IMG/VR virus record: IMGVR_UViG_3300011113_000500
Location: 4,396 to 68,395 of that record
Strand: one strand, 5' to 3'
Source of the DNA: a virus
Length of the DNA: 64,000 bases
In this document: positions 2,078 through 34,532 of the stretch, in pieces
Position numbering within the stretch: the first letter of the stretch is position 1
Layout of the letters: the number at the start of each line of letters is the position of its first letter
Notes under the pieces: model-generated
Database searches by the model: none
The model's input: the letters and a program-made list of their open reading frames with translations, nothing else
What the model was told of the DNA's origin: nothing
Made by a program: the position numbers and the translations under genes

Positions 2078-2764
2078 GGTTTTTTATTTTTGATTTTCAC
2101 TACAACATCTACATTTGCTTCTCCCTGAATGACCTTTCATTCGTTCTTTAGGAGTCCAAACTGCTACATATATTAGGAGTGCTATAAACAATCCATTGAG
2201 AGCGCATAATACCGCATAACCTATTGTGTCTAACATAATTTTATTCTTCTATATGATTATATACTAATTTCATTACCCAGGCATTTACAAACTCATACAT
2301 ACCGCACACGTTACGTGCTTCTTCTTCGGTTTCGTAATAAATTATACCGCCGTCTTTATCTTTCATGAATCCCATGTTTCTGAGATCGATGATAACATAA
2401 TGTCCTTCTTTCATAGTTTTAAATTTAGTAGTCAGGATAGTATTTGGATTAGTGAATACACTAAAACTATACTACCAAAAATGTAAATAATCATAGGGTC
2501 AAATGGATGACATCCTTTTTCAAGTTCTTGATGGAATTTTTTAATCATACATCTAAATCAATTACTTTACCTACTTGTTTAGTCCAAAAACTAGCAGTTG
2601 GAATAACAATAATTACCATTGCTAATAACCAACCCCATATTTGCCATCCTAATTCTGTATCACTTTCATTAGTGATAACACCCCACATTCCGATTGCTCC
2701 AATCAATGTTACTATGATTGTATTGATAATAATTTTAAAAAACTCTTTCATATCCTTTTTTACT

Positions 2765-6422: not shown

Positions 6423-6632
6423 TTATATATTTAAAAATTCTATAGGTGTCCAGTAATAATATGCGTTACAAAGTATATCTTCACCTTTTTTAACTTTATA
6501 AAGTATCTCAGCTGTTTCTAACCATCGTGTTTCACCATCAATAGTCATTGGCCACCATAAGAATTTTGTTTTAGTTCTTTTAATGTCATCCCAATAAGCA
6601 TGCATTAGCTCTTTTTCTTTTGTAAATCTCAT
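6423..6632 (-). CDS. Hypothetical protein
   Basis: 69 aa ORF with ATGA-type overlap to the upstream gene. Confidence 0.6.
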   Translation of the reverse strand: MRFTKEKELMHAYWDDIKRTKTKFLWWPMTIDGETRWLETAEILYKVKKGEDILCNAYYYWTPIEFLNI

Positions 6633-7288
6633 ATCAATCTTTTTTCGTGATGATCCTTCGGTAATGATAGTTTAGCAATTGGTTGCTTGTCCATTATCCT
6701 TAATATATTATCTAAATCGATAGGTTCCAAATTATTTCCATCCACACCGACATCCATTGCTTTACCATCAGCCACCCTAAGGTGATTAGGTAAATGTACA
6801 TGTCCGTGCAAGTGAATGACACCACCGTTCATATTGATCCAACTAGCAATTGGATAATGCATACAAACAAAAGTATATCGATCCATGGCATCCTTTTTAG
6901 TAACACCGGGACGTTTAACTTCCAAATACAAATACTCTTGTACTGAGCTAAACAAGCTTTGCACATTGTCTTTGTTTCGTTCGATATGATGATCATGATT
7001 ACCAAGTACCAAATGCACATTCTGGCATATGATCCTATCACGAAATTGTTTGATACTTTCAAACCCACCGAATGACCAATCACCTAAGTGGATCAAGATA
7101 TCATCCTGATGTACGTGTTTGTTAATATTAGATACTAACTCTTCGTTCATCTTCTCCAATGAACTAAAATCACGCGTCACCGAATCGGCATCTGTCCATC
7201 GTGTAGTTGATCGGCATATGTTGGCATGGTTGTAGTGTGTATCACTCGTAAACCATAGCCTTTGACCTTTCTTTAATTCAATCTTCAT
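6629..7288 (-). CDS. Calcineurin-like metallophosphoesterase
   Basis: Motifs SDTH, HLGD, LGNHD, HGHVH. Confidence 0.9.
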   Translation of the reverse strand: MKIELKKGQRLWFTSDTHYNHANICRSTTRWTDADSVTRDFSSLEKMNEELVSNINKHVHQDDILIHLGDWSFGGFESIKQFRDRIICQNVHLVLGNHDHHIERNKDNVQSLFSSVQEYLYLEVKRPGVTKKDAMDRYTFVCMHYPIASWINMNGGVIHLHGHVHLPNHLRVADGKAMDVGVDGNNLEPIDLDNILRIMDKQPIAKLSLPKDHHEKRLI

Positions 7289-7291
7289 ATC

Positions 7292-7442
7292 TTTTAATTA
7301 GATCCTAAAGATAAGTACAATATTTCAGAAAACCTAAGGAAAAGTAAGAAAAGTTGTAACTCATTGATAATGAACTAGTTACAAATCAATTGATTATAAG
7401 TCGTTGATTATCAATGAGTTAGGTACTTTATAAGAGAACGTA
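7292..7442 (-). repeat. Dispersed promoter/palindrome module (units 7357-7381 and 7397-7421, plus one truncated unit)
   Basis: Near-identical to 3454-3612. Confidence 0.8.
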
Positions 7443-7513
7443 TATTGAACTTATAGCCCGTACGGGTATTTTGGATCATATCGTTTATGATCTTGTTCAG
7501 GCCGTTCTATATC

Positions 7514-8671
7514 TTAATGAGAATCGCCTACATCGTGTTTCTCTCCGTAGATGAGATAGTCTGGATTGATCACTTTGGCAACCTTGTTTCGTTCACCCGA
7601 TGTATGTTTGATTACAATACCTTCATGTGGTACTTTGGTACCTTCAATAAAGTTGTTGAATGTGAATTGATCTTGAATTTCTTGAGACCAAAGCCCAACA
7701 TATAATATTGGTACATGAGGCAAATCAACACCACCAATAAAATCATAAGACTTACCAATCATTGTAAGATGAGTTGCTTCACCAGCAAAATACCTACCAT
7801 CCCACATAACATCGAACCCAGCAAACTCTAACTCCTTCAATCCATAGTCATAGTTCTTTTGAATACCAGGACCATATATCTCACCATAAACTACTACTCC
7901 ACTTCCAACTTCAGCTGGTGTGTGGTTCTTAACAAATGCCCATAACTTGTTTTTGATATCATACTTATCAGCAATTGTTCTCCATACGTCTGTGTCATAG
8001 AAACCTTGAGTATCAGATCCTTTCTCTACGTTATGTGAACCATAAACATATTCATATTCAATCCATTCATCAGCCAAACGTAAGAATTTTTTACACTTAT
8101 CCCAAAATGATAATTTACGTTTCTTAACAATACCATAACGAGCATTTGTACCATGAATCTTACGAGTGATTTGAACATAATCATCTTCACTGAACATTCC
8201 GGTTACATTCTTAATGTTAGGGAACTTATAGTATACCGTGAAGTTAGGATTCTGGTGATACTTGATCTTACGTCCTGATGCTAATTGGACTTGTACTGCT
8301 GGTGGTTCGTATTTAAAGATGCTCATGGCTTCCATCATATCTCTACCCTCAAAGTACTCATTACGAGTACCTTTGTATGGTACGTGCGATAGAGGAATGA
8401 TTAAGCATTCAGAATATACTCCTCTCAATTTAACAGTACGAACACGACCACCTTTACGTAAGTAGTTGGTTACATTCATTGCGTCTGAAAGTTCTTGAGG
8501 TATGACTGCATCTGTTGTTGCTACAACCACTAAGTCATCTACCTTGTACTCTCCTTTCTTGGTGATAGCTTGCCATCCACCTGCTAAGGCTACTTCAATA
8601 TTATCTGCACCTGGAATTGGTATAAGTTCACCAATACGTGCTACATAGCATACACTATTTTGATTTTCCAT
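7514..8671 (-). CDS. RNA ligase, Rnl2/DRB0094 type, with N-terminal OB-like domain
   Basis: IPGADNIE, motif I RKIHGTN, GEIYGPGIQKN, EGIVIK, KVINPDY. Confidence 0.9.
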   Translation of the reverse strand: MENQNSVCYVARIGELIPIPGADNIEVALAGGWQAITKKGEYKVDDLVVVATTDAVIPQELSDAMNVTNYLRKGGRVRTVKLRGVYSECLIIPLSHVPYKGTRNEYFEGRDMMEAMSIFKYEPPAVQVQLASGRKIKYHQNPNFTVYYKFPNIKNVTGMFSEDDYVQITRKIHGTNARYGIVKKRKLSFWDKCKKFLRLADEWIEYEYVYGSHNVEKGSDTQGFYDTDVWRTIADKYDIKNKLWAFVKNHTPAEVGSGVVVYGEIYGPGIQKNYDYGLKELEFAGFDVMWDGRYFAGEATHLTMIGKSYDFIGGVDLPHVPILYVGLWSQEIQDQFTFNNFIEGTKVPHEGIVIKHTSGERNKVAKVINPDYLIYGEKHDVGDSH

Positions 8672-8672
8672 A

Positions 8673-9056
8673 TTATAACTTTATTTCAAAACGTTTTCTC
8701 ATTTGTTCTATCTTATCATCTGGGCATCCGTGGATGTTTTTACTATCATGTCTATTCTCTACTATAAGGCAAGATGTTTGATACCCATACTTCTCAGCCA
8801 ATTCAAAATAAGCATCCATTTCCCATTCTTGGGTAAATGTATTTGAAACTACAATCATACCTAACCCATCTTCCATGGAGTGTTCAACACGTAGTTTGCA
8901 CCAATTATGTGCTTGATTAAGCTTCGAAGCATCAAACTTATATTCGCCGTCTTGCATAAAATATTGATCCGCTTCAAACATATAACAGCCTAATGACTTA
9001 GCTAGTGTTGATTTGCCCGATCCAGGCAATCCTCTTAATAATATTAACTGCTTCAT
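8673..9056 (-). CDS. P-loop polynucleotide-kinase-like protein (AAA_33)
   Basis: LRGLPGSGKST, EADQYF, VVSNTF; adjacent to the RNA ligase. Confidence 0.8.
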   Translation of the reverse strand: MKQLILLRGLPGSGKSTLAKSLGCYMFEADQYFMQDGEYKFDASKLNQAHNWCKLRVEHSMEDGLGMIVVSNTFTQEWEMDAYFELAEKYGYQTSCLIVENRHDSKNIHGCPDDKIEQMRKRFEIKL

Positions 9057-9421
9057 AACCAACCTTCTTGTTTTAACTCTTTCAAAAATGCTTTGAACTC
9101 GGCTTCACCTTGCAAGCATACCGATTCTTTCAAATGCTCCATTGACTCAGGATCGTTTATTAACACTCCTCTGAACCAAGCATTGTTATCCCAAAAATCT
9201 TCCTTCCAAGGTCTTTCTCGTTTGTCTGTGAACTCGATGTCAATATCCTCAAAGTAAGTACCTGGCGCATCCGGTCTCTCCAATCTGATTGCTTCGAAGC
9301 AATACTTGTCGCTTTCAATACTTCTTGATTCAGAACGCATGATGTTAATCTCCACTTCTGGTGATTGTTCTTCTTGTTCGCGAACATACCATACTCCATT
9401 TACTTGTATTCTGTCTTCCAT
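9053..9421 (-). CDS. Hypothetical protein
   Basis: 122 aa ORF, translationally coupled. Confidence 0.65.
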   Translation of the reverse strand: MEDRIQVNGVWYVREQEEQSPEVEINIMRSESRSIESDKYCFEAIRLERPDAPGTYFEDIDIEFTDKRERPWKEDFWDNNAWFRGVLINDPESMEHLKESVCLQGEAEFKAFLKELKQEGWL

Positions 9422-17205: not shown

Positions 17206-17802
17206 TTACTTGATTATTTTCGTTGTATAAAACATTCCATTATCATCTACTAATGTAATAACATATGTACCAGCTGGAAGTATATCAGAGTTCATCTTAA
17301 TCGTAGTGCTAAAGTAATTATTCTCATACACACAAGATCCATCAACTGCATACATTCTTATCATACCCGAATTGGACGGTGTATTGATATTGAATATACC
17401 GTTAACTGGATTAGGCCATGTCTTAATATTATTAGTTAACTCTTCAGTTACTGAATCAACCCACGGCACTTGTATAGTGTAGGTAGCCACTTGCTGTCCT
17501 GCTCCTAAGTATAATACTGTATCTATACATTGTTCTACCATGCATGGAGCGTCTGAAATAACACATATGTTAAGTGATAGACTATCGATCCCAGGTAGTA
17601 TTCCTATATAATAGTTTCCAGCTGGCTGCTGATTGAACATTATAGATCCTTGGATACCGCCTCCGTAATAATATCCTACTACAGAATATGGACAAGGGCT
17701 GGCATTATCAATGTAAAGATTAAAGGAAGTGAATACCTGTGACGAAGCATTCAATCCGATGAATGCAAAAAGAGTTAAGAAAAGTAATTTGATCTGTTTC
17801 AT
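17206..17802 (-). CDS. Secreted protein with type IX secretion system type-A C-terminal sorting domain
   Basis: Signal peptide, and C-terminus IKTWPNPVNGIFNI...MYAVDG...LPAGTYVITL...TTKIIK. Confidence 0.85.
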   Translation of the reverse strand: MKQIKLLFLTLFAFIGLNASSQVFTSFNLYIDNASPCPYSVVGYYYGGGIQGSIMFNQQPAGNYYIGILPGIDSLSLNICVISDAPCMVEQCIDTVLYLGAGQQVATYTIQVPWVDSVTEELTNNIKTWPNPVNGIFNINTPSNSGMIRMYAVDGSCVYENNYFSTTIKMNSDILPAGTYVITLVDDNGMFYTTKIIK

Positions 17803-20548: not shown

Positions 20549-20587
20549 AATTTATCTCCTTTTATATTTCAAAGAACGTCTACATTG

Positions 20588-20661
20588 TGCGCCCTCCTGG
20601 GATCGAACCAGGCACCTACTGATTATGAGTCAGTTGCTCTAACCGAATGAGCTAAGGGCGC
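20588..20661 (-). tRNA. tRNA with CAT anticodon, probably Ile2 (lysidine type)
   Basis: GCGCCCT/AGGGCGC acceptor; ACTGA-CTCATAA-TCAGT anticodon arm; GGTTCGATCCC T arm; no encoded CCA. Confidence 0.9.
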
Positions 20662-20772
20662 TTGCAGCGTAGTGGGGCTGCAGACCCCTGAGGCTACTAC
20701 GCATTTTATCCTCTTTAGCAAAAGCCATACTCTGGGACGCTGTTCTTATGGGTAGCGTAGCATGTACTTTAG

Positions 20773-20877
20773 TAGTCAGGACAGGATTCGAACCTGTATG
20801 ATGGGTTTTTCGAGAACTTCGTTGTACTTCCTATCCACATCTACTCGATATAGCGTCTACCATTCCGCCACCTGACT
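20773..20877 (-). ncRNA. tRNA-like element 1 (no canonical anticodon loop)
   Basis: AGTCAGG/CCTGACT acceptor, GCGGAATGGTAGACGC D arm, ACAGGTTCGAATCCTGT T arm; TCGAG/CTCGA stem closes a ~29-nt loop. Confidence 0.7.
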
Positions 20878-20933
20878 GTATGTGGGCTACCCTCCTTTCG
20901 TCGCAACCGCCCACCCGTTGTGATTTCAGATTG

Positions 20934-21008
20934 TAGTCAGGACAGGATTCGAACCTATGCTTTCTCATACTATATGAGCGGGCCATTACCAAATTTCGCC
21001 ACCTGACT
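20934..21008 (-). ncRNA. tRNA-like element 2 (aberrant anticodon arm CTCATA-TAG-TATGAG)
   Basis: Same acceptor and near-identical T arm as element 1, with an unrelated middle. Confidence 0.65.
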
Positions 21009-21093
21009 ATTTTGAGGATGAGAAGTCCTCTGTGTTGTGTCATAACTGGATGACCTACCAACTAATTCCTTTCTCAAGGGAACAACACATATG

Positions 21094-21165
21094 TAGTCGG
21101 TAGGGGATTCGAACCCCTATGACAAGAATGAAAATCTTGTATCCTAACCCTTAGATGAACCGACC
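21094..21165 (-). tRNA. tRNA-Glu (TTC)
   Basis: GGTCGGT/ACCGACT acceptor; CAAGA-TTTTCAT-TCTTG; AGGGGTTCGAATCCCCT. Confidence 0.9.
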
Positions 21166-21396
21166 AAGATTAGTATTTACTTTTTTCTTGCCAGCCTTCT
21201 TAACAGCTTTCTGTTTAACTGGTTTAGGTTTCTTTTCTTTCTTAAGTTTTCGATTAGTCATGGATTCTAATACTCCTGGAGCGTATTCAATCTCTGTCTT
21301 GATCGGGCCGTTCTTAAATTTATTAAGATCATAGTACCATATACTAGTGCTAAATTCAGACGTATATGTACGTGTAAACTTTGTTTTGCCTTCCAT
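21151..21396 (-). CDS. Small Lys-rich protein
   Basis: 81 aa ORF; its last codons overlap the 5' end of tRNA-Glu. Confidence 0.55.
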   Translation of the reverse strand: MEGKTKFTRTYTSEFSTSIWYYDLNKFKNGPIKTEIEYAPGVLESMTNRKLKKEKKPKPVKQKAVKKAGKKKVNTNLGRFI

Positions 21397-21409
21397 AACT
21401 CAAAATTAG

Positions 21410-21482
21410 TAGCGGGGGATGGATTCGAACCACCGGCCTTTAGGTTATGAGCCTAACGAGCTACCAACTGCTCTACCCCACA
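21410..21482 (-). tRNA. tRNA-Met (CAT), initiator-like
   Basis: TGTGGGGTAGAGCAGTTGGTAGCTCG TTAGG-CTCATAA-CCTAA ... GGTTCGAATCC; unpaired 1:72. Confidence 0.85.
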
Positions 21483-21491
21483 ATATAAAAA

Positions 21492-22388
21492 TGCCTGAGA
21501 CTACAGCATATGTACTAGGTCTTTTGTCGGATTATGTATTCCCTTCTTGTCCACCAACTTTTGATTGGTATCCTAGCAATGCCGGTTATTTAAGTGAACC
21601 ACTCTTTGAGCTACATGTTTTGGACTACTCTCGTCGTACTCTATCTGTTCAACCCTGCCGAGCTGATTCATCCTTGCGGGACTACAAACTTTTCAAACGA
21701 ATCACCTTAGGCTTGCGACCTTCGATGGCAATGAACAACTCATTACTAGGTAGGCATCTTTCGTCCGTAGCTGGTAAGCACTTATGCTTTGTTAATTATT
21801 AGTTTTGCTGATAATAGTGCAAAGTGTATTAGTTGCAGATTCGGAAAGTAGTGGCTTACCATTAAGCTAACCCATCTTTTGAACGAGTCAATACTCAACT
21901 ACTCTCTGAAGTGTCCCCACTTCCATACTTCAAGAATTCTACGTAAATAAACTTTGGTAAGTCTATCTCCGGTGCAGTAACAGCACCACCTGTACACTGA
22001 CATTGCCTTTCGGCTTTAAGATCCCTCTTGTATTGGAACTCGCAATGATATACTCGGATAAGCATACTTCTTGCAGAATATTCGTTCCTATAGGTTATTC
22101 TTATTGCTCTTCCGAACTCAACCAAATGACCTGCATCACCTGGTCATCAATTCACTTCCCTTACAGTGTCACCCTCAGGTACAAAGAATTGATGATATCC
22201 TACTTGCCTACTCAAGCTCGCAACAACCGAAGCTATTACAAACCGCAAACCACATTAACTAAGGTGATTCACTTTATCCTGGTTTCCCAGTTTATTTAAC
22301 GACCATAGGCGGCCGATTATCATTTATCAGATTAAATGTCTCATAATCAACCCGAAGGTCTCATAATCAACTACTGAATGGATAATAA
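21492..22388 (-). ncRNA. Large structured ncRNA, GOLLD-like (~900 nt; ends approximate)
   Basis: No credible ORF; many UUCG/GNRA hairpins on the minus strand (GACC-TTCG-GGTT, CTGG-GAAA-CCAG, GCC-GAAA-GGC, GGTC-GCAA-GCC); own promoter; lies among phage tRNAs. Confidence 0.65.
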
Positions 22389-22390
22389 TA

Positions 22391-22403
22391 TTTTCAAAGA
22401 ACT
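22391..22403 (-). promoter_or_regulatory. boxA-like antitermination element
   Basis: AGTTCTTTGAAAA between promoter and ncRNA; a second copy GTTCTTTGAAA at 20567-20577. Confidence 0.55.
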
Positions 22404-22480: not shown

Positions 22481-22491
22481 ATGTTTTTTCG

Positions 22492-22577
22492 TACCCGGAG
22501 TGGGACTTGAACCCACACGAGCATTACTGCTCATCAGATTTTAAGTCTGACATGACTACCAATTCCATCACCCGGCC
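22492..22577 (-). tRNA. tRNA-Leu (TAA), 5' end supplied by the HNH insertion
   Basis: TCAGA-CTTAAAA-TCTGA; long variable arm GAGCAGTAATGCTC; GTGGGTTCAAGTCCCAC; acceptor has a G2:G71 mismatch. Confidence 0.85.
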
Positions 22578-23002
22578 ATTCTTTTTGCTTTTAAGGCATG
22601 TGATATCTTTTTTTTATGTTCGTCACTTTTAAATTTACCTTTATTACCTCTCCCGCCAGCGGACTTATCACCGCTACCATTACGGCGACATGCTTCTGCA
22701 TAGCCATATTTTTCAATCGAACGTTCCCATACACTTTTCCATGTACCATTCTCTTTCGAATCATTTACATTCTCTTTAGGAGTACCAAAATATAAATGTT
22801 TTGGATTCGAACATTTCGCATTATTACATTTATGACATAGTAAAATTTTATGTCCAGATGGTATTGTTGTTTTTAAAAACTCTGCTAATAATCCTTTGAA
22901 GTTAGTAGAGTTACCTCCTCGTTCAATACACGCATCAGACATATCTAAATGAAGCTGTCTGTCAGATACCGGCAATTCAATGTAAAGTTTAATATCGATC
23001 AT
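22568..23002 (-). CDS. HNH homing endonuclease
   Basis: LLCHKCNNAKCSNPKHLYFGTPKENVND; C-terminal NUMOD3-like KSDEHKKKISHALK; probable ATG at 23002. Confidence 0.85.
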   Translation of the reverse strand: MIDIKLYIELPVSDRQLHLDMSDACIERGGNSTNFKGLLAEFLKTTIPSGHKILLCHKCNNAKCSNPKHLYFGTPKENVNDSKENGTWKSVWERSIEKYGYAEACRRNGSGDKSAGGRGNKGKFKSDEHKKKISHALKAKRMAG

Positions 23003-23044
23003 ATATTCCTTTAAAATAAATATACACATTGAGCCGATTCTATA

Positions 23045-23204: not shown

Positions 23205-23301
23205 TTAACAATCATAAAGATAAGTACATTTTTTCAAATAGGCAAAGCTTTTTGTAACTTTTTTTCAAAAAAGTTGTAACTCATTGATTATCAAAAGTTT
23301 A
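23205..23301 (-). promoter_or_regulatory. Promoter module plus one 25-bp palindrome (23277-23301)
   Basis: taggcaaagctttttgtaactttttttca shared with 1730-1758. Confidence 0.7.
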
Positions 23302-23818
23302 TATGATGACGCCCTTTAGCACCAAATGGATTACCTACCTGTAGATAATAACAATTGAAGCAAAGCATACGTAAATTCTCCCGTACATGATCATTACGAT
23401 CGCCGTTTAAATGATCCAATAGCAATGGAACGGTATAATCGGTTATTCGTCTTTCTTCAAAACCACAGCAATCACACTTTTCTTCAAACTCGCCAGACCT
23501 TAACAAGCGTTCTTTAAGTTTGTATCGATTGTATCCATAATGTTTACCTTCCAGAATAGCTTTGATACTATACGGTCCAGTCAATTTAACTGGCATTGGT
23601 TTTGGAATACCTTTACCAAACGGATTCTTATGTAGGTCAAACAATGTTTTGCCTGTAGCCGGATCGATATACATTTTAGCATACTTCTTGTATACATCAT
23701 ATGATACCTTAAGGAATCTCGCAGCTCCTTTACATGACTTAGAGTTTTCCATTGCATAACGGATCTCTGTCTCTGTTAAGTTGTAAGGTTGTCTTCCTTG
23801 TCCTTTCGCGAATGGCAT
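23291..23818 (-). CDS. HNH endonuclease-domain protein with N-terminal HTH-like region
   Basis: CDCCG...LLDHLNGDRNDHVRENLRMLCFNC. Confidence 0.8.
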   Translation of the reverse strand: MPFAKGQGRQPYNLTETEIRYAMENSKSCKGAARFLKVSYDVYKKYAKMYIDPATGKTLFDLHKNPFGKGIPKPMPVKLTGPYSIKAILEGKHYGYNRYKLKERLLRSGEFEEKCDCCGFEERRITDYTVPLLLDHLNGDRNDHVRENLRMLCFNCYYLQVGNPFGAKGRHHINF

Positions 23819-24307: not shown

Positions 24308-24598
24308 TTATTTTTTAACTTCTAACGTAACCGTTAGTCCTGCTTTTGATAACATAGAGTAGATCATGAACGATTCATTTTGGCCTCCATGGTATACAGA
24401 TGCCGACCCATTCTCATGTACTAGATTAGCCAATTGTACTGCACGTAACGTATTACACATAGGTAATGATGTTGTAAATGTTTTAATCACATGATCAAAC
24501 GAATTCACACTATCATTATGTACTATCAATACACAATGCCTACGTTTCTTACGTCCTTTACTTTTCGAAGTGCTCAACTTTAACGACCTTGTCACCAT
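24308..24598 (-). CDS. clpS: ClpS-like protease adaptor
   Basis: LIVHNDSVNSFDHVI...AVQLANLVHENGSASV...GLTV. Confidence 0.75.
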   Translation of the reverse strand: MVTRSLKLSTSKSKGRKKRRHCVLIVHNDSVNSFDHVIKTFTTSLPMCNTLRAVQLANLVHENGSASVYHGGQNESFMIYSMLSKAGLTVTLEVKK

Positions 24599-24984: not shown

Positions 24985-25656
24985 TCAATAAGATACAGTA
25001 CCAACTGCTTTTTGTAAACGTGTTTGTGCAGATTCAAAACAAACTATTTTAAAGAAATCGTTAACATACTTTGCACGATCGTTTTTATACTTCAAGTAAT
25101 AAGAATGTTCCCATAGATCCAATCCGATAAGTATATCACCTGGAATGTTTACTATGTTCATATATGGGTTGTCTTGATTGGGAGTAGTTGCAAAATATAA
25201 TTGTCCATTATGATGCATTAACCAACACCAGCCAGATCCAAAATGCTTTGATGCAGCTTCAATAAAGGCTTCTTTGAATTTATCAAACGATCCAAACTGC
25301 TTATTGATCATTGTCAATAGAAGACCATCTTCGATCTTACCCTTACGTTCTGGGTTAAGACCGTTAAAATATATTGTATGGTTGAAATACCCACCCATAT
25401 TGTTTCGGAATGTATCACTATATGATCCTACTTTAGATAATAAAACACGTTCAACGTCGTCACCATAGGTTACTGGAATAGCTTCTTTCTTTATAGCTTC
25501 GTTAGCCTTTTCTATGTATCCCATATAATGTTTAGTGTAATGGGTCTTCATAGTTTCTTCATCGAATGGAGAATACTCACTGTACTTGAATGCTAACTTT
25601 ACCGGAGTTAGTTCAAATTGTTCTGCTTCACGTAATAATGATTTTAATGATATCAT
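24985..25656 (-). CDS. sodA: Fe/Mn superoxide dismutase with extra N-terminal leader
   Basis: HYTKH, GGYFNH, FGSGWCWL, NQDNP, DLWEHSYY. Confidence 0.92.
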   Translation of the reverse strand: MISLKSLLREAEQFELTPVKLAFKYSEYSPFDEETMKTHYTKHYMGYIEKANEAIKKEAIPVTYGDDVERVLLSKVGSYSDTFRNNMGGYFNHTIYFNGLNPERKGKIEDGLLLTMINKQFGSFDKFKEAFIEAASKHFGSGWCWLMHHNGQLYFATTPNQDNPYMNIVNIPGDILIGLDLWEHSYYLKYKNDRAKYVNDFFKIVCFESAQTRLQKAVGTVSY

Positions 25657-29906: not shown

Positions 29907-30757
29907 TTATTATAAATATTTAATGATTTTATATAATCCTCTACATTTTCTGTCGGATGCCATCCTAGAATATCGTTAGCCGTTGTATCTGTACATAACG
30001 TTTCTTGAGCCTCGCCGGGTTTATCTTCCATATATTCTATATTTGTTACTCCGTACATATTAGCAATATCACGTACTGAATAATTCTTACCACGGCCTAA
30101 TTCAAATTCATATCCCCAAGCATCTCGTTCATATACTTTAATTAATGCATCTACAATATCATGTACATGTGTAAAGTCTCTACGTTTAGAGCCGTCGCCG
30201 TATATTATTAACGACTTTCCTTCCTCTATTCGTTTCTCCCATGCGCCTAATAAAGTACAGTACCCACCTTCCTTTAAATGATATGGGCCATAAACATTAT
30301 AAAATCTAGCTATACTAGCTTTTAAATTATAATGTATTTGAAATAGTTTGATAATTTCTTCACCTACATCTTTGCTAAAAGTATATGGATTTTTAAATTT
30401 ACCTGAATGGTGTGAACTGCTACCGGCATACACTAATGGTATTTCATTTTCCGCACACCATTTTGCTAACTTCATTGTAGCGTTTGCATTTGTGGTAAAA
30501 TATAGTTCCGGATCTGAGAATGATGGCTGTATCCTTGCGGTTGCCGCTAAATGATATACTACATCGAATCTTCCGTATCCGGAATAGTTACTTACATTAC
30601 GTATATCAAACTCAATATACTGACACCCTTTTTGATGATTTGATTTAAGTCCAGTATGATAATTATCAAAAGACACTACCGTATGCCCTTCAGACAATAA
30701 TCTTTTAATTAGATTCGTACCTACAAATCCAGCTCCGCCTGTTACTAGTATGTTCAT
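29903..30757 (-). CDS. NAD-dependent sugar epimerase/dehydratase
   Basis: TGGAGFVG, YxxxK (YTFSK), RFYNVYGP. Confidence 0.92.
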   Translation of the reverse strand: MNILVTGGAGFVGTNLIKRLLSEGHTVVSFDNYHTGLKSNHQKGCQYIEFDIRNVSNYSGYGRFDVVYHLAATARIQPSFSDPELYFTTNANATMKLAKWCAENEIPLVYAGSSSHHSGKFKNPYTFSKDVGEEIIKLFQIHYNLKASIARFYNVYGPYHLKEGGYCTLLGAWEKRIEEGKSLIIYGDGSKRRDFTHVHDIVDALIKVYERDAWGYEFELGRGKNYSVRDIANMYGVTNIEYMEDKPGEAQETLCTDTTANDILGWHPTENVEDYIKSLNIYNK

Positions 30758-32916: not shown

Positions 32917-33625
32917 AGTAATATTCCTTTAACTGTTTTAACTGTTCATCTATATCAATTGTTTTGATATGCGGTATTAAACATTTATCAATACCTTTAT
33001 CAACTGGTATAATATCGATACGTTTATTAAATATTTGCGATATGAATTGTAACAATGAATGTTTAGATATGCAGTTTCCAGATACTATCGTCTCTACATT
33101 ATATCTATCCCAATCTGACATCAAACATTCACATTGTTTAGCCCATTCATATGTAGTAATACCATTCCACATAGCTTGTGTATATCCATTACACGAATCA
33201 TCGTTAGTATTTAAAAACCATTCGAGTAAACTTTTCTTATCACGCAGCTCCGGTCCGATTATCGAACTTTTTATAATCTTCGTACGTTTACCATGTAATA
33301 CAATATAATCGCGAGATACTTTTTTAGACAATCCATAATCATCGTTATCCATTTCACAGTCAGTACCAGGATGTATAATTCTAGCATTTGAATTCATATC
33401 TAGCCAAGTCGGTAACATCGAGTTAACATTAAAGTCAGATGTTTTTTGCGGTATTGCGCCTATAGCATTAATAATAAAATCTCCAGAAAAATTTTCTACG
33501 GCTGACATAAATTCCTTTGAAGGGAATCTACTATCTATTGTAGATATATCATGGCCTTTATCTTTAAAATACTTTACAAGCATATGGCCTAACATGCCAT
33601 TATGACCTAGGATTAAAATATTCAT
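32906..33625 (-). CDS. NDP-4-keto sugar reductase (RmlD-like SDR)
   Basis: GHNGMLG, TDC, YGLSK, SIIGPEL, WNGIT. Confidence 0.8.
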   Translation of the reverse strand: MNILILGHNGMLGHMLVKYFKDKGHDISTIDSRFPSKEFMSAVENFSGDFIINAIGAIPQKTSDFNVNSMLPTWLDMNSNARIIHPGTDCEMDNDDYGLSKKVSRDYIVLHGKRTKIIKSSIIGPELRDKKSLLEWFLNTNDDSCNGYTQAMWNGITTYEWAKQCECLMSDWDRYNVETIVSGNCISKHSLLQFISQIFNKRIDIIPVDKGIDKCLIPHIKTIDIDEQLKQLKEYYYDN

Positions 33626-34532
33626 AACTACTTAAAATATTATTTAATTCATTCTTTTCAACAACTACTTTATCACTAGAAAAATCTGTGAATGGTAAAC
33701 TTTCGTTATATACATCTTTATAGTGCATGATATAATATCCGTTATTTGTTTTTACCCTAGGAGCCTCTTCTATAGAAAACATTGATTCATGAATTTTTTC
33801 TGAAATACGTGGCACTCCTATTTCGTATTCTAGTCCGAATAATTCACGATAGATTTCAAACAAATCTATGATTCTAAATGCTTTTACATCTGGTATTACG
33901 TTATATCCTGTCAATGTCAATGCATGTTCTATCAAATCAACAGCCTGTTCCGCAGTTATCATAAATCTAGTCATTTCGGTTGAATATACTTTCAATTTAT
34001 ACTTTTTACGTATAGCATCCCATATTAATGGAATCACACTTCCGGTAGAATTCAATACATTACCATATATCGCTGAAGATAATAGTACATTTGATTTCTC
34101 TGCATTTACAATAAAAGATTCGCCGGCTACAAATTTCATTGCACCGTACAATGTAGTAGCGGCTCTAGATTTATCCGTTGATACAAAGCATGCGGCTGAA
34201 AAATCATTTTCTTCTGCGACACGTCTCGAATTAACAGCTCCATTAATAATAGTTTGTACGCCTTCTTCTATGTTCTGATCGACTGCCTCGATCTGTTTTA
34301 ATGACGCAGCAAAAATACCAATGTCATGCCCTTTCGATGCTCGCTTCATTAAATCAAAATTACGCACATCTCCTATCACACAATTGATATTAGGAAATTC
34401 TTTTTTAAGATAATAATGTTTAGCTTCGTCACGACTATAAATAGTAATTTCATTATCGTTATAGTAACGATCTATCAAACTACGTCCAAGGAATCCAGCT
34501 CCTCCAGTAATAAAAATTTTCTGATTTTTCAT
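33600..34532 (-). CDS. UDP-GlcNAc 4,6-dehydratase-like (PseB/FnlA/CapD family)
   Basis: SRDEAK, GDVRN, STDKS, YGAMK, YGNVLNSTGSVIP, MTRF, EKIHE. Confidence 0.85.
   Translation of the reverse strand: MKNQKIFITGGAGFLGRSLIDRYYNDNEITIYSRDEAKHYYLKKEFPNINCVIGDVRNFDLMKRASKGHDIGIFAASLKQIEAVDQNIEEGVQTIINGAVNSRRVAEENDFSAACFVSTDKSRAATTLYGAMKFVAGESFIVNAEKSNVLLSSAIYGNVLNSTGSVIPLIWDAIRKKYKLKVYSTEMTRFMITAEQAVDLIEHALTLTGYNVIPDVKAFRIIDLFEIYRELFGLEYEIGVPRISEKIHESMFSIEEAPRVKTNNGYYIMHYKDVYNESLPFTDFSSDKVVVEKNELNNILSSYEYFNPRS

What the first reader, a model, noticed from the sequence alone, without database searches (positions are those of the whole stretch)
20773..21008. Two tRNA mimics with constant acceptor/T arms and unrelated anticodon domains
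Seen: both read AGTCAGGTGGCG...AGGTTCGAATCCTGTCCTGACTAC. One has a 5-bp stem with a ~29-nt loop in place of the anticodon arm (105 nt). The other has CTCATA-TAG-TATGAG with no U33-type 7-nt loop (75 nt). The intact acceptor and T arms argue against random decay. A degenerate 3' remnant (tttagtagtcagga, 14 bp identical) sits 18 kb away at 2424-2437. Inference: a family of non-decoding tRNA-like RNAs, acting as decoys for tRNA-targeting defences, RNase P/Z processing signals, or a scaffold carrying variable RNA.
Basis: partly seen in the sequence, partly recalled or inferred. Interest (0 to 1): 0.75.

Follow-up and report, generated by a model that had tools for sequence, protein, structure and literature searches.

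The report
Anticodon-less leucine-tRNA-shaped phage RNA genes
Two small genes in a lake phage keep the upper half of a leucine tRNA but carry unrelated RNA where the codon-reading arm should be; they belong to a very large phage RNA family whose job is still unknown.

Summary
On the minus strand, 20773-20877 (105 nt, "A") and 20934-21008 (75 nt, "B") share an identical acceptor stem, T arm, discriminator A and following C. What lies between differs completely. They sit in a phage RNA island with four ordinary tRNAs and a GOLLD RNA.

They are not decayed tRNAs. The exact 22-base 3' end occurs in more than 136 stretches of uncultured phage contigs, at 1-13 copies per record. It occurs in no isolate bacterial genome. 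Across 55 array copies the stems stay paired, with compensatory changes. The nucleotides that E. coli leucyl-tRNA synthetase needs (A73, U8, A14, A15:U48, G18G19) are kept, while the middle ranges from about 20 to 130 nt.

An orthologue of A in two other contigs has the same insert, a compensated T arm and unrelated flanks. The conserved unit is therefore exactly the predicted RNA. ARAGORN's anticodon calls are at the level seen with shuffled inserts.

My best reading is a tRNA(Leu)-derived chassis that host tRNA enzymes cut out and possibly charge, carrying swappable structured cargo. Function is not shown. Closest known are the stable tRNA-like RNAs of T5 (RNA1, RNA2) and T4 (rnaC). This scan has already noted the family on other DNA.

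The parts
20773..20877 (-). Element A: 105-nt tRNA-like RNA gene. Acceptor 5' strand 20871-20877, Leu-type D arm 20853-20868, 55-nt insert 20798-20852, T arm 20781-20797, acceptor 3' strand 20774-20780, discriminator A 20773; C74 at 20772.
   Evidence: Sequence. Family model R1 81 bits, E 5e-16. Rfam tRNA 22.5 bits, below the cut-off of 29. No ARAGORN call. Orthologue with the same insert in L188/L194.
20798..20852 (-). Insert of A, in place of the anticodon and variable arms. Purine-rich; contains TCGAG...CTCGA.
   Evidence: It is 54 of 55 nt identical in L188/L194, although the T arm and flanks differ. No antisense target in the window beyond chance.
20934..21008 (-). Element B: 75-nt minimal tRNA-like RNA gene. 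Acceptor 21002-21008 and 20935-20941, T arm 20942-20958, discriminator A 20934; C74 at 20933.
   Evidence: Sequence. R1 53 bits, E 1e-9. Rfam tRNA 33.4 bits with the anticodon arm skipped. ARAGORN calls tRNA-Leu(tag) with A33 and U37. Relatives L165 and L160-L164.
20964..20978 (-). Hairpin CTCATA-TAG-TATGAG of B, in place of the anticodon stem-loop.
   Evidence: The same hairpin is in L165. It is replaced by CTCA-GAAA-TGAG in L160-L164.
20587..20661 (-). Context: tRNA-Met(cat), the last RNA gene of the island.
   Evidence: ARAGORN; Rfam 67.7 bits.
21093..21165 (-). Context: tRNA-Glu(ttc), upstream of B.
21409..21482 (-). Context: tRNA-Met(cat), directly after GOLLD.
21492..21906 (-). Context: conserved 3' domain of GOLLD RNA. 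The 5' domain probably extends to about 22376.
   Evidence: Rfam RF02032, 263.9 bits, E 4.8e-74. A similar 5' start is seen in L165.
22491..22577 (-). Context: tRNA-Leu(taa), the first RNA gene of the island.

Best explanation
A and B are two genes of a large, phage-borne family of RNAs built on one chassis: the acceptor stem, D arm and T arm of a leucine-type tRNA.

Inferred mechanism: they are transcribed with the neighbouring tRNAs and GOLLD as part of one minus-strand RNA island. Because the acceptor/T-arm helix and the D/T-loop elbow are intact, the host's tRNA enzymes cut them out (RNase P at the 5' end, 3' trimming, completion of CCA after the encoded C74). They then fold into a stable L-shape.

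The anticodon and variable arms are replaced by a cargo domain that differs from gene to gene: a 55-nt domain in A and a short capped hairpin in B. The cargo is the variable working part. The constant ends also serve, at the DNA level, as homology for swapping cargos between arrays.

The chassis keeps the full set of nucleotides that E. coli LeuRS needs, so the RNAs may also be leucylated. They do not decode.

Shown: family, fold conservation, non-decoding build, module boundaries. Inferred: processing, stability, cargo function, charging.
For: There are 5-13 copies, all on one strand, in five array records, and 1-8 in 14 of 14 near-complete genomes of 65-289 kb.

Phage-only: 20 stretches in 185,579 species genomes, all on MAG contigs and none in an isolate genome. 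No cultured phage record covers more than 24% of A.

Fold under selection: in 55 array copies scoring 40 bits or more, each acceptor and T-stem pair is paired in 53-55 of 55. Compensatory types occur (D stem CG 41 / TA 8; T stem AT 45 / GC 4; acceptor 1-72 GC, 6-67 TA, 7-66 AT once each).

Leucine core kept: U8 53, A14 49, A15 50, G18 50, G19 47, U48 48 and A73 48 of 55. The review PMC9976931 (passages read) states that E. coli LeuRS needs A73, A14, A15-U48, G18G19 and the D/T-loop contacts, and still charges tRNA-Leu lacking the anticodon and variable arms.

Same 3' signature as the real tRNAs of the island: discriminator A, then C, then no CA. C74 is present in 183 of 187 family copies and CCA is encoded in 6 of 187.

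The unit of conservation is the RNA: A's orthologue in L188/L194 is identical through the 5' part and the insert except 1 nt. Its T stem is changed on both sides (A-U to C-G). Both flanks are unrelated. B's relative L165 is 94% identical over 82 nt (flanks read).

Cargo can be structured and selected: in a six-member insert subfamily three helices covary.

Not decoders: without the intron option ARAGORN of 163 real elements and 21 of 163 with shuffled inserts. With introns allowed it.
Against: No expression, RNA ends, CCA or charging were shown for this phage.

A's insert has no thermodynamic signal (z -0.49). Its only homologues are near-identical, so it has no covariation of its own.

At least one apparent 54-nt member (L048) has almost no cargo, so the chassis alone may be the working part.

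B-type copies have C, not U, at position 48 and an altered D arm, which weakens the case for leucylation of B.

The acceptor sequence is far more constant than the fold requires. A pure scaffold role does not explain this.

The family samples were drawn with the exact 22-mer, so constancy of the 3' half is partly built in.

No partner protein recurs beside the genes.
Confidence: 0.55

Rival explanations
1. Leucine-accepting decoy or donor. The working part is the chassis itself. The RNAs are charged by host LeuRS, cannot decode, and act through the charged end: soaking up LeuRS or EF-Tu, feeding a tRNA-dependent transferase, or distracting enzymes that attack the acceptor end. Inserts only tune or diversify them.
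For: The conserved positions match the stated E. coli LeuRS set, including the A15:U48 pair that the review lists among the essential elements (PMC9976931 passages). The acceptor sequence is nearly invariant beyond what the fold needs. At least one apparent member has almost no insert. The phage carries a ClpS-like adaptor and an RNA ligase, kinase and phosphoesterase trio. That link is context only.
Against: It does not explain why inserts are long, diverse, conserved within subfamilies and covarying, nor why one genome needs up to 13 kinds. B-type copies lack U48. The LeuRS rules come from E. coli, not from Bacteroidota. No charging data exist.
Confidence: 0.15
2. Punctuation and recombination linkers only. 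The tRNA-like ends exist to make host RNase P and 3' nucleases cut the long island transcript, releasing GOLLD, the spacer RNAs and small mRNAs. They also give repeated homology for shuffling modules. The middles are tolerated passengers.
For: RNase P and tRNA 3' enzymes need only the acceptor/T-arm helix and the elbow (established knowledge). A and B are flanked by spacers of 84, 55 and 111 nt. Two of these spacers recur in other phages next to different tRNA(-like) genes. Matches to other contigs start or stop inside the constant ends. HNH endonuclease genes lie just upstream, as in the T5 and T4 tRNA regions.
Against: A's insert is better conserved than its T arm (54 of 55 against 13 of 17 positions). 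Three helices of another insert type covary. Real tRNAs in the same arrays could already serve as cut sites.
Confidence: 0.2
3. Working decoders of unusual build. B would be a tRNA-Leu(UAG), and A a tRNA-Ile(GAU) with a 22-nt intron.
For: ARAGORN calls B as tRNA-Leu(tag). With introns allowed it calls A as tRNA-Ile(gat) with a 22-nt intron. Rfam tRNA scores B at 33.4 bits, above the cut-off of 29.
Against: Both proposed loops have A at position 33, and B has U at 37. B's loop can close to a 6-bp stem with a 3-nt loop and is a GAAA tetraloop in L160-L164. The Rfam alignment skips B's anticodon arm. The same calls arise with shuffled inserts: 21 of 163 without introns, and 87 of 163 with introns allowed, 73 of them calls with an intron. 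Bacteria are not known to splice 22-nt tRNA introns (established knowledge).
Confidence: 0.03
4. Decaying tRNA pseudogenes.
For: A is not called by ARAGORN and is below the Rfam cut-off.
Against: Three arms are intact and compensated across 55 copies. The family is very large. A's orthologue is conserved exactly from +1 to position 72, with unrelated flanks.
Confidence: 0.02

Closest known systems
Phage T5 RNA1, RNA2 and RNA3 (NC_005859 misc_RNA 30501-30644, 32959-33083, 33877-33949; annotated as tRNA-like (RNA3: putative), RNA1 and RNA2 as stable RNAs of unknown function)
   Same: They lie inside the phage tRNA cluster among small ORFs and HNH endonuclease genes. RNA1 has a Leu-type D arm (GCCGGAATTGGTAGACGG), a T arm and roughly 80 nt instead of an anticodon arm. 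It scores 24 bits on Rfam tRNA, close to A's 22.5. RNA2 carries the very T arm of this family, CAGGTTCGAATCCTG.
   Different: The acceptor sequences differ, and the family model gives RNA1 only 21.6 bits, no more than ordinary tRNAs get. There is no multi-copy invariant chassis and no swappable inserts. That these T5 RNAs accumulate as stable RNAs rests on the record's annotation. I saw no paper on them.
Phage T4 rnaC (species 1 stable RNA; NC_000866 70908-71046)
   Same: It sits at the end of the tRNA cluster, next to a homing endonuclease gene. Its 3' 92 nt have a 7-bp acceptor-like helix and the T arm CCGGGTTCGAATCCCGG, with no anticodon arm. R1 scores it at 22 bits.
   Different: It has an extra 5' domain, a single copy, a different sequence and no Leu-type D arm. 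Its function is equally unknown.
Engineered tRNA scaffold for recombinant RNA expression (Ponchon and Dardel; recalled, not read here)
   Same: The design is the same: the anticodon stem-loop is replaced by an RNA of interest, so that the cell processes and stabilises it like a tRNA.
   Different: It is man-made. Whether the phage RNAs are used this way is inferred.
tmRNA
   Same: The two ends form the tRNA upper half, there is no anticodon, it is processed by RNase P and it is charged (abstracts listed).
   Different: tmRNA is alanine-specific through G3:U70, has a tag reading frame and pseudoknots, and needs SmpB. ARAGORN's tmRNA search finds none here, and pair 3-70 here is U-A.
Bacterial and phage Y RNA (YrlA, RF02553)
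   Same: It is a tRNA-like D/T-arm module in a non-coding RNA, also phage-borne (PMC4201824, abstract seen).
   Different: In YrlA the RNA ends lie in the Ro60-binding stem, not in an acceptor stem. There is no Rfam hit in this region at E up to 10, and no Ro60-type (TROVE) domain among the 69 larger ORFs scanned against Pfam.

Membership tests
Canonical tRNA (Rfam RF00005) | 7-bp acceptor stem, D arm, and T arm with a TTCGAAT-type loop | tested here: met
   Searches show all three arms in A and B.
Canonical tRNA (Rfam RF00005) | Anticodon arm: 5-bp stem and 7-nt loop with U33 and a purine at 37 | tested here: not met
   A has no such arm. B's proposed loop has A33 and U37 and can close to a 3-nt loop. 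The Rfam alignment skips this arm in B.
Canonical tRNA (Rfam RF00005) | Score at or above the Rfam gathering cut-off (29 bits) and a tRNA-finder call that exceeds chance | tested here: inconclusive
   B scores 33.4 bits and A 22.5. ARAGORN calls B only. Calls arise in 21 of 163 shuffled-insert controls against 28 of 163 real elements.
   Both elements have them. B has AUAGG in the T stem, giving one G-U pair. R1 scores 81 and 53 bits. A and B are themselves among the 57 sequences R1 was built from, so their scores lean high.
   A has all of them. B has U8, A14, A15 and GG but C48 and a remodelled D stem, as do its relatives. So the feature is met for A and only partly for B.
T5 RNA1/RNA2-type stable tRNA-like RNAs | tRNA-like ends with a non-anticodon middle, inside a phage tRNA cluster | tested here: met
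T5 RNA1/RNA2-type stable tRNA-like RNAs | Accumulates as a discrete stable RNA in infected cells | not testable with these tools
   Only contigs of public RNA libraries were available. They cannot show RNA ends or levels.
T5 RNA1/RNA2-type stable tRNA-like RNAs | Sequence homology to the T5 RNAs | tested here: not met
   R1 gives T5 RNA1 21.6 bits, no more than ordinary tRNAs get, and RNA2 is not found. Only the 15-nt T arm of RNA2 is identical.
tmRNA | Tag reading frame, pseudoknots and the G3:U70 alanine mark | tested here: not met
   ARAGORN -m finds 0 genes. Pair 3-70 is U-A.
Intron-containing tRNA | A canonical anticodon arm is restored after removing one insert at a known splice position | tested here: not met
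   ARAGORN -i proposes tRNA-Ile(gat) with a 22-nt intron for A, but with A33, a 13-nt unpaired variable region and a poor D stem. Intron calls arise in 73 of 163 shuffled controls.

The most novel reading that the evidence does not exclude
Phages run a natural 'RNA display' system. One invariant leucine-tRNA upper half serves as a universal chassis that the host cuts out, CCA-tails and perhaps leucylates. Into it, phages plug a library of aptamer-like cargo domains that act on host or defence factors. The invariant ends double as recombination arms, possibly helped by the neighbouring homing endonucleases, so cargos are traded between unrelated phages like cassettes.
Probability: 0.3. Interest if true: 0.85.

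Novelty: new variant of a known kind. Interest (0 to 1): 0.7.

Why it matters
If the reading is right, phages invented the "tRNA scaffold" trick that laboratories use to express foreign RNAs. They apply it at scale, with up to 13 different cargos per genome in more than a hundred uncultured phages. None of the cargos has a known target.

It would give a function-finding handle on the long-unexplained stable RNAs of T4 and T5.

It matters for annotation. ARAGORN and Rfam label many of these genes as tRNAs with meaningless anticodons, which distorts counts of phage tRNAs and suppressors.

A non-decoding RNA that keeps a full LeuRS recognition set also raises a testable question: do phages make charged tRNA look-alikes for use outside translation?

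Tried and rejected
- **Public runs.** Only Logan contigs were available. Contigs of three RNA libraries (X15, X16, X19) match GOLLD (21492-22400). In X15 and X19 they also match the constant part of A (bin 20764-20854, depth 52.7 and 166). They come from relatives, and the protein-coding flanks are uncovered in all the runs. This therefore shows neither transcription of this phage nor RNA ends.
- **Rfam at E up to 10 on the island and E up to 0.5 on 20 array loci.** No known family lies in the inserts.
- **GOLLD link.** GOLLD is present in only 6 of 49 family-bearing records (2 of 14 near-complete; one locus was not held). It is not an obligate partner.
- **Neighbouring proteins.** ORFs of 147 loci were clustered. 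No family recurs in more than 10 loci, and the largest clusters look like frame translations of the RNA genes themselves, judged by eye.
- **Antisense targets of A's insert in the window.** The longest match is 10 nt, while shuffles typically give 10-12.
- **Promoter and terminator scan.** Nothing above shuffles. The scan does not cover Bacteroidota promoters.
- **Folding of the three spacers.** z-scores were -0.18 to -1.59, which is not decisive.
- **Close homologues of A's insert among the first 163 elements.** None were found. A motif scan then found L188 and L194.
- **Integration-site reading.** Rejected, because there are many same-strand copies in T4-like lytic-type genomes.
- **Literature.** I found no description of this family. 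Fremin et al. 2023 (PMC10690425; passages read) report unnamed tRNA-like candidates from IMG/VR. The motif was absent from the 6 supplement files that could be searched, and 3 files could not be searched, so prior listing there cannot be excluded.

Full report
**What is there**

The window is part of a 68,395-base IMG/VR virus record estimated 39% complete. All genes are on the minus strand and G+C is about 34%.

Pfam and PHROGs show T4-like replication genes: family B polymerase, clamp loader and GroEL. There are also 7-deazaguanine pathway genes, a large glycan cluster and a protein with a type IX secretion sorting domain. The last points to a Bacteroidota host.

Between 20587 and 22577 the minus strand carries an RNA island, in this order:
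- tRNA-Leu(taa)
- GOLLD RNA (Rfam RF02032, 263.9 bits)
- tRNA-Met
- an 81-codon ORF
- tRNA-Glu
- element B
- element A
- tRNA-Met

They share the acceptor stem AGTCAGG/CCTGACT, the T loop and 3' strand, discriminator A and a following C. The D region is of leucine-tRNA type; GCGGAATGGTAGACGC in A. The first 25 bases of A match annotated tRNA-Leu genes of three cultured phages at 96-100%.

**They are not decoders**

ARAGORN does not call A. It calls B as tRNA-Leu(tag), but with A at position 33 and U at 37, and the loop can close into a 6-bp stem with a 3-nt loop. Rfam's tRNA model gives A 22.5 bits, below the cut-off of 29. It gives B 33.4 bits only by skipping the anticodon arm.

With introns allowed, ARAGORN proposes A as tRNA-Ile(gat) with a 22-nt intron. 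That model again has A33, a 13-nt unpaired variable region and a poor D stem.

I ran a control on 163 family elements. Without introns ARAGORN makes a call in 28 real elements and in 21 with shuffled inserts. With introns it makes 116 against 87. Given three intact arms, such calls are therefore what random middles produce.

In B's relatives L160-L164, the loop TAG with its two closing pairs is replaced by a GAAA tetraloop on the same CTCA/TGAG stem. ARAGORN's tmRNA search finds nothing.

**They are members of a very large phage family**

- The copies share the 5' half as well. Their middles differ in sequence, and element lengths run from 54 to 182 nt.
- Five array records hold 5, 5, 8, 11 and 13 copies at up to 3 mismatches, always on one strand.
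- All 14 near-complete genomes examined (65-289 kb) hold 1-8 copies.
- In one genome per 185,579 prokaryote species the 22-mer occurs in only 20 stretches. All are on MAG contigs, and 11 of the 20 are binned to Bacteroidota lineages. None is in an isolate.
- No cultured phage record covers more than 24% of A.
- In the window itself, a covariance model built from 57 members finds only A (81 bits) and B (53 bits). Real tRNAs score 31 or less, and the 14-mer at 2424-2437 is not hit.

This scan's earlier notes show that other sessions met the same family on other genomes and also found it undescribed. My results were obtained independently, except for the T5/T4 lead, which I then checked myself.

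**The fold is under selection and the core is leucine-type**

I fetched 11 array stretches and searched them with the model. I kept the 55 hits of 40 bits or more and dropped 17 lower rows (ordinary tRNAs and T5).

| Feature | Result in the 55 copies |
|---|---|
| Acceptor pairs | paired in 54-55 of 55 |
| T-stem pairs | paired in 53-54 of 55 |
| D-stem pairs | paired in 48-51 of 55 |
| Compensatory types, D stem | CG 41 / TA 8 / AT 1 |
| Compensatory types, T stem | AT 45 / GC 4 |
| Compensatory types, acceptor | single GC, CG, TA and AT replacements |
| U8 | 53 |
| A14 | 49 |
| A15 | 50 |
| G18 | 50 |
| G19 | 47 |
| U48 | 48 |
| A73 | 48 |

The review by Giegé and Eriani (PMC9976931; passages read) states that E. 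coli LeuRS depends on A73, A14, the A15-U48 pair, G18G19 and the D/T-loop contacts. [quoted passage not shown]

The family has therefore kept what LeuRS, RNase P and the CCA enzyme need and has let go of what the ribosome needs. Two caveats apply. The sample was drawn with the exact 3' 22-mer, so constancy of that half is partly built in. B-type copies have C48 and a remodelled D arm.

C follows the discriminator in 183 of 187 copies, and CCA is encoded in only 6. The four real tRNAs of this island end the same way. This fits shared 3' maturation.

**The conserved unit is the RNA, and the parts are modular**

A motif scan found an orthologue of A in two other contigs, L188 and L194. Compared with A:
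- From +1 through the insert it is identical except for one base.
- Its T stem differs on both sides of one pair (A-U to C-G).
- The T loop has A for G.
- The discriminator is U.
- Both flanks are unrelated.

Conservation thus begins and ends at the predicted RNA ends. The insert (54 of 55) is better kept than the T arm (13 of 17).

B has a 94%-identical relative (82 nt) in L165, placed directly before a GOLLD-like 5' domain.

The spacer upstream of B recurs in G012, and the spacer downstream of A recurs in G052. Those matches run into the constant ends but not into the inserts. No contig shares the whole island.

In a six-member insert subfamily found by a second motif scan, three helices covary. 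One helix shows six different stem versions, a second shows four, and a third shows AGUG/CACU, GCUG/CAGC and GGUG/CACC. At least some cargos are therefore selected, structured RNAs. A's own insert could not be tested this way, and it has no thermodynamic signal.

**What it most likely does**

*Shown:* a widespread, phage-only gene family; a conserved tRNA-like upper half; no anticodon function; module boundaries at the RNA ends; exchange of parts between phages.

*Inferred from established properties of RNase P, tRNA 3' processing and LeuRS:* the RNAs are cut out of the island transcript like tRNAs, gain CCA, are stable, and may be leucylated.

I take the cargo to be the variable working part and the chassis to be the handle (confidence 0.55). 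Two rivals remain live:
- The chassis itself is the effector, as a charged or uncharged LeuRS, EF-Tu or nuclease decoy (0.15).
- The elements are only cut sites and recombination linkers (0.2).

The near-invariant acceptor sequence is not explained by fold alone. Recombination between copies, perhaps promoted by the two HNH endonuclease genes just upstream, or a sequence-reading partner, could explain it. Neither was tested.

A decoy for anticodon nucleases is unlikely, because there is no conserved anticodon-type loop.

**Comparison with what is known**

The closest precedents are annotated but unexplained.

| RNA | Features |
|---|---|
| T5 RNA1 | In the tRNA cluster; Leu-type D arm; roughly 80-nt middle; Rfam tRNA 24 bits |
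| T5 RNA2 | Carries the identical T arm |
| T4 rnaC | Ends in an acceptor-like helix and a T arm, without an anticodon arm |

The family model scores these no higher than ordinary tRNAs (21.6 and 22 bits). They work alike but are not sequence members.

GOLLD is known to lie near phage tRNA islands (Kretsch et al. preprint, passages read). It accompanies this family in only 6 of 49 records.

The three bacterial tRNA-mimic families of a 2026 preprint (abstract and outline read) are Rfam motifs that do not match here.

What is new relative to T4 and T5 is the single invariant chassis, the many copies per genome, the swappable cargos and the retained leucine identity set. I therefore class it as a new variant of a known kind. 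My eight literature searches found no description. Some supplements of Fremin et al. 2023 could not be searched.

Noticed in passing
window 21492-22376 (minus strand): GOLLD RNA. The Rfam 3' domain is 21492-21906 at 263.9 bits. A likely 5' domain runs to about 22376, and its start resembles the sequence after the B-type element in L165. tRNA-Leu lies about 115 nt upstream and tRNA-Met 10 nt downstream. Contigs of three RNA-library studies match 21492-22400 from relatives.
   Followed up: partly
window 21009-21092 and 20662-20772 (minus strand): The spacers before B and after A recur in other phage contigs: about 80% identity in G012 and 82% in G052. There they sit next to different tRNA(-like) genes. 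Contigs of one RNA library match 21026-21089 with 0-3 differences. These may be small RNAs released between tRNA-type cut sites. Folding z-scores were weak.
   Followed up: partly
window 22568-23029 and 23291-23818 (minus strand): Two HNH endonuclease genes lie directly upstream of the RNA island. T5 has heg genes and T4 has segB in the same position relative to their tRNA clusters.
   Followed up: partly
window 6629-9062 (minus strand): Phosphoesterase, RNA ligase (PHROG 968, E 5e-62) and a polynucleotide-kinase-like ATPase lie in a row. This looks like an RNA healing-and-sealing set of the kind T4 uses against tRNA cleavage.
   Followed up: no
window 21151-21396 (minus strand): An 81-codon ORF with a lysine-rich tail lies between tRNA-Met and tRNA-Glu. 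Its last 15 bases overlap the start of tRNA-Glu. It has no Pfam or PHROG match.
   Followed up: no
window 24308-24598, 24985-25656, 17206-17802 (minus strand): A ClpS-like adaptor, an Fe/Mn superoxide dismutase, and a protein with a type IX secretion sorting domain. The last is a host clue for Bacteroidota.
   Followed up: no
L186 656-727 (Enterococcus phage EFDG1): An ordinary tRNA-Gln(TTG) of a cultured Enterococcus phage shares 24 of 25 bases with the family's T arm and 3' acceptor strand. The chassis thus looks like a Gln-type lower half joined to a Leu-type D arm.
   Followed up: partly
L022 2593-2655 and L023 131-193: A freshwater-1 RNA (RF02979) scores 70.1 bits, just under its cut-off of 72, inside a tRNA array that also holds family members.
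   Followed up: no
L031, L075, L117, L180 183-304, L175 1816-1957: Some family members carry a second large insertion inside the D loop, between GGAAT and GGTAGACGC, besides the one replacing the anticodon arm. Several inserts also contain an internal T-arm-like hairpin (NNNGTTCGANTCNNN), as T5 RNA2 does.
   Followed up: no
window 2424-2437: A 14-base identity with the 3' end and trailer of element A overlaps the stop codon of a small ORF. No T arm lies upstream and the family model gives no hit. It is either chance or a recombination scar.
   Followed up: yes
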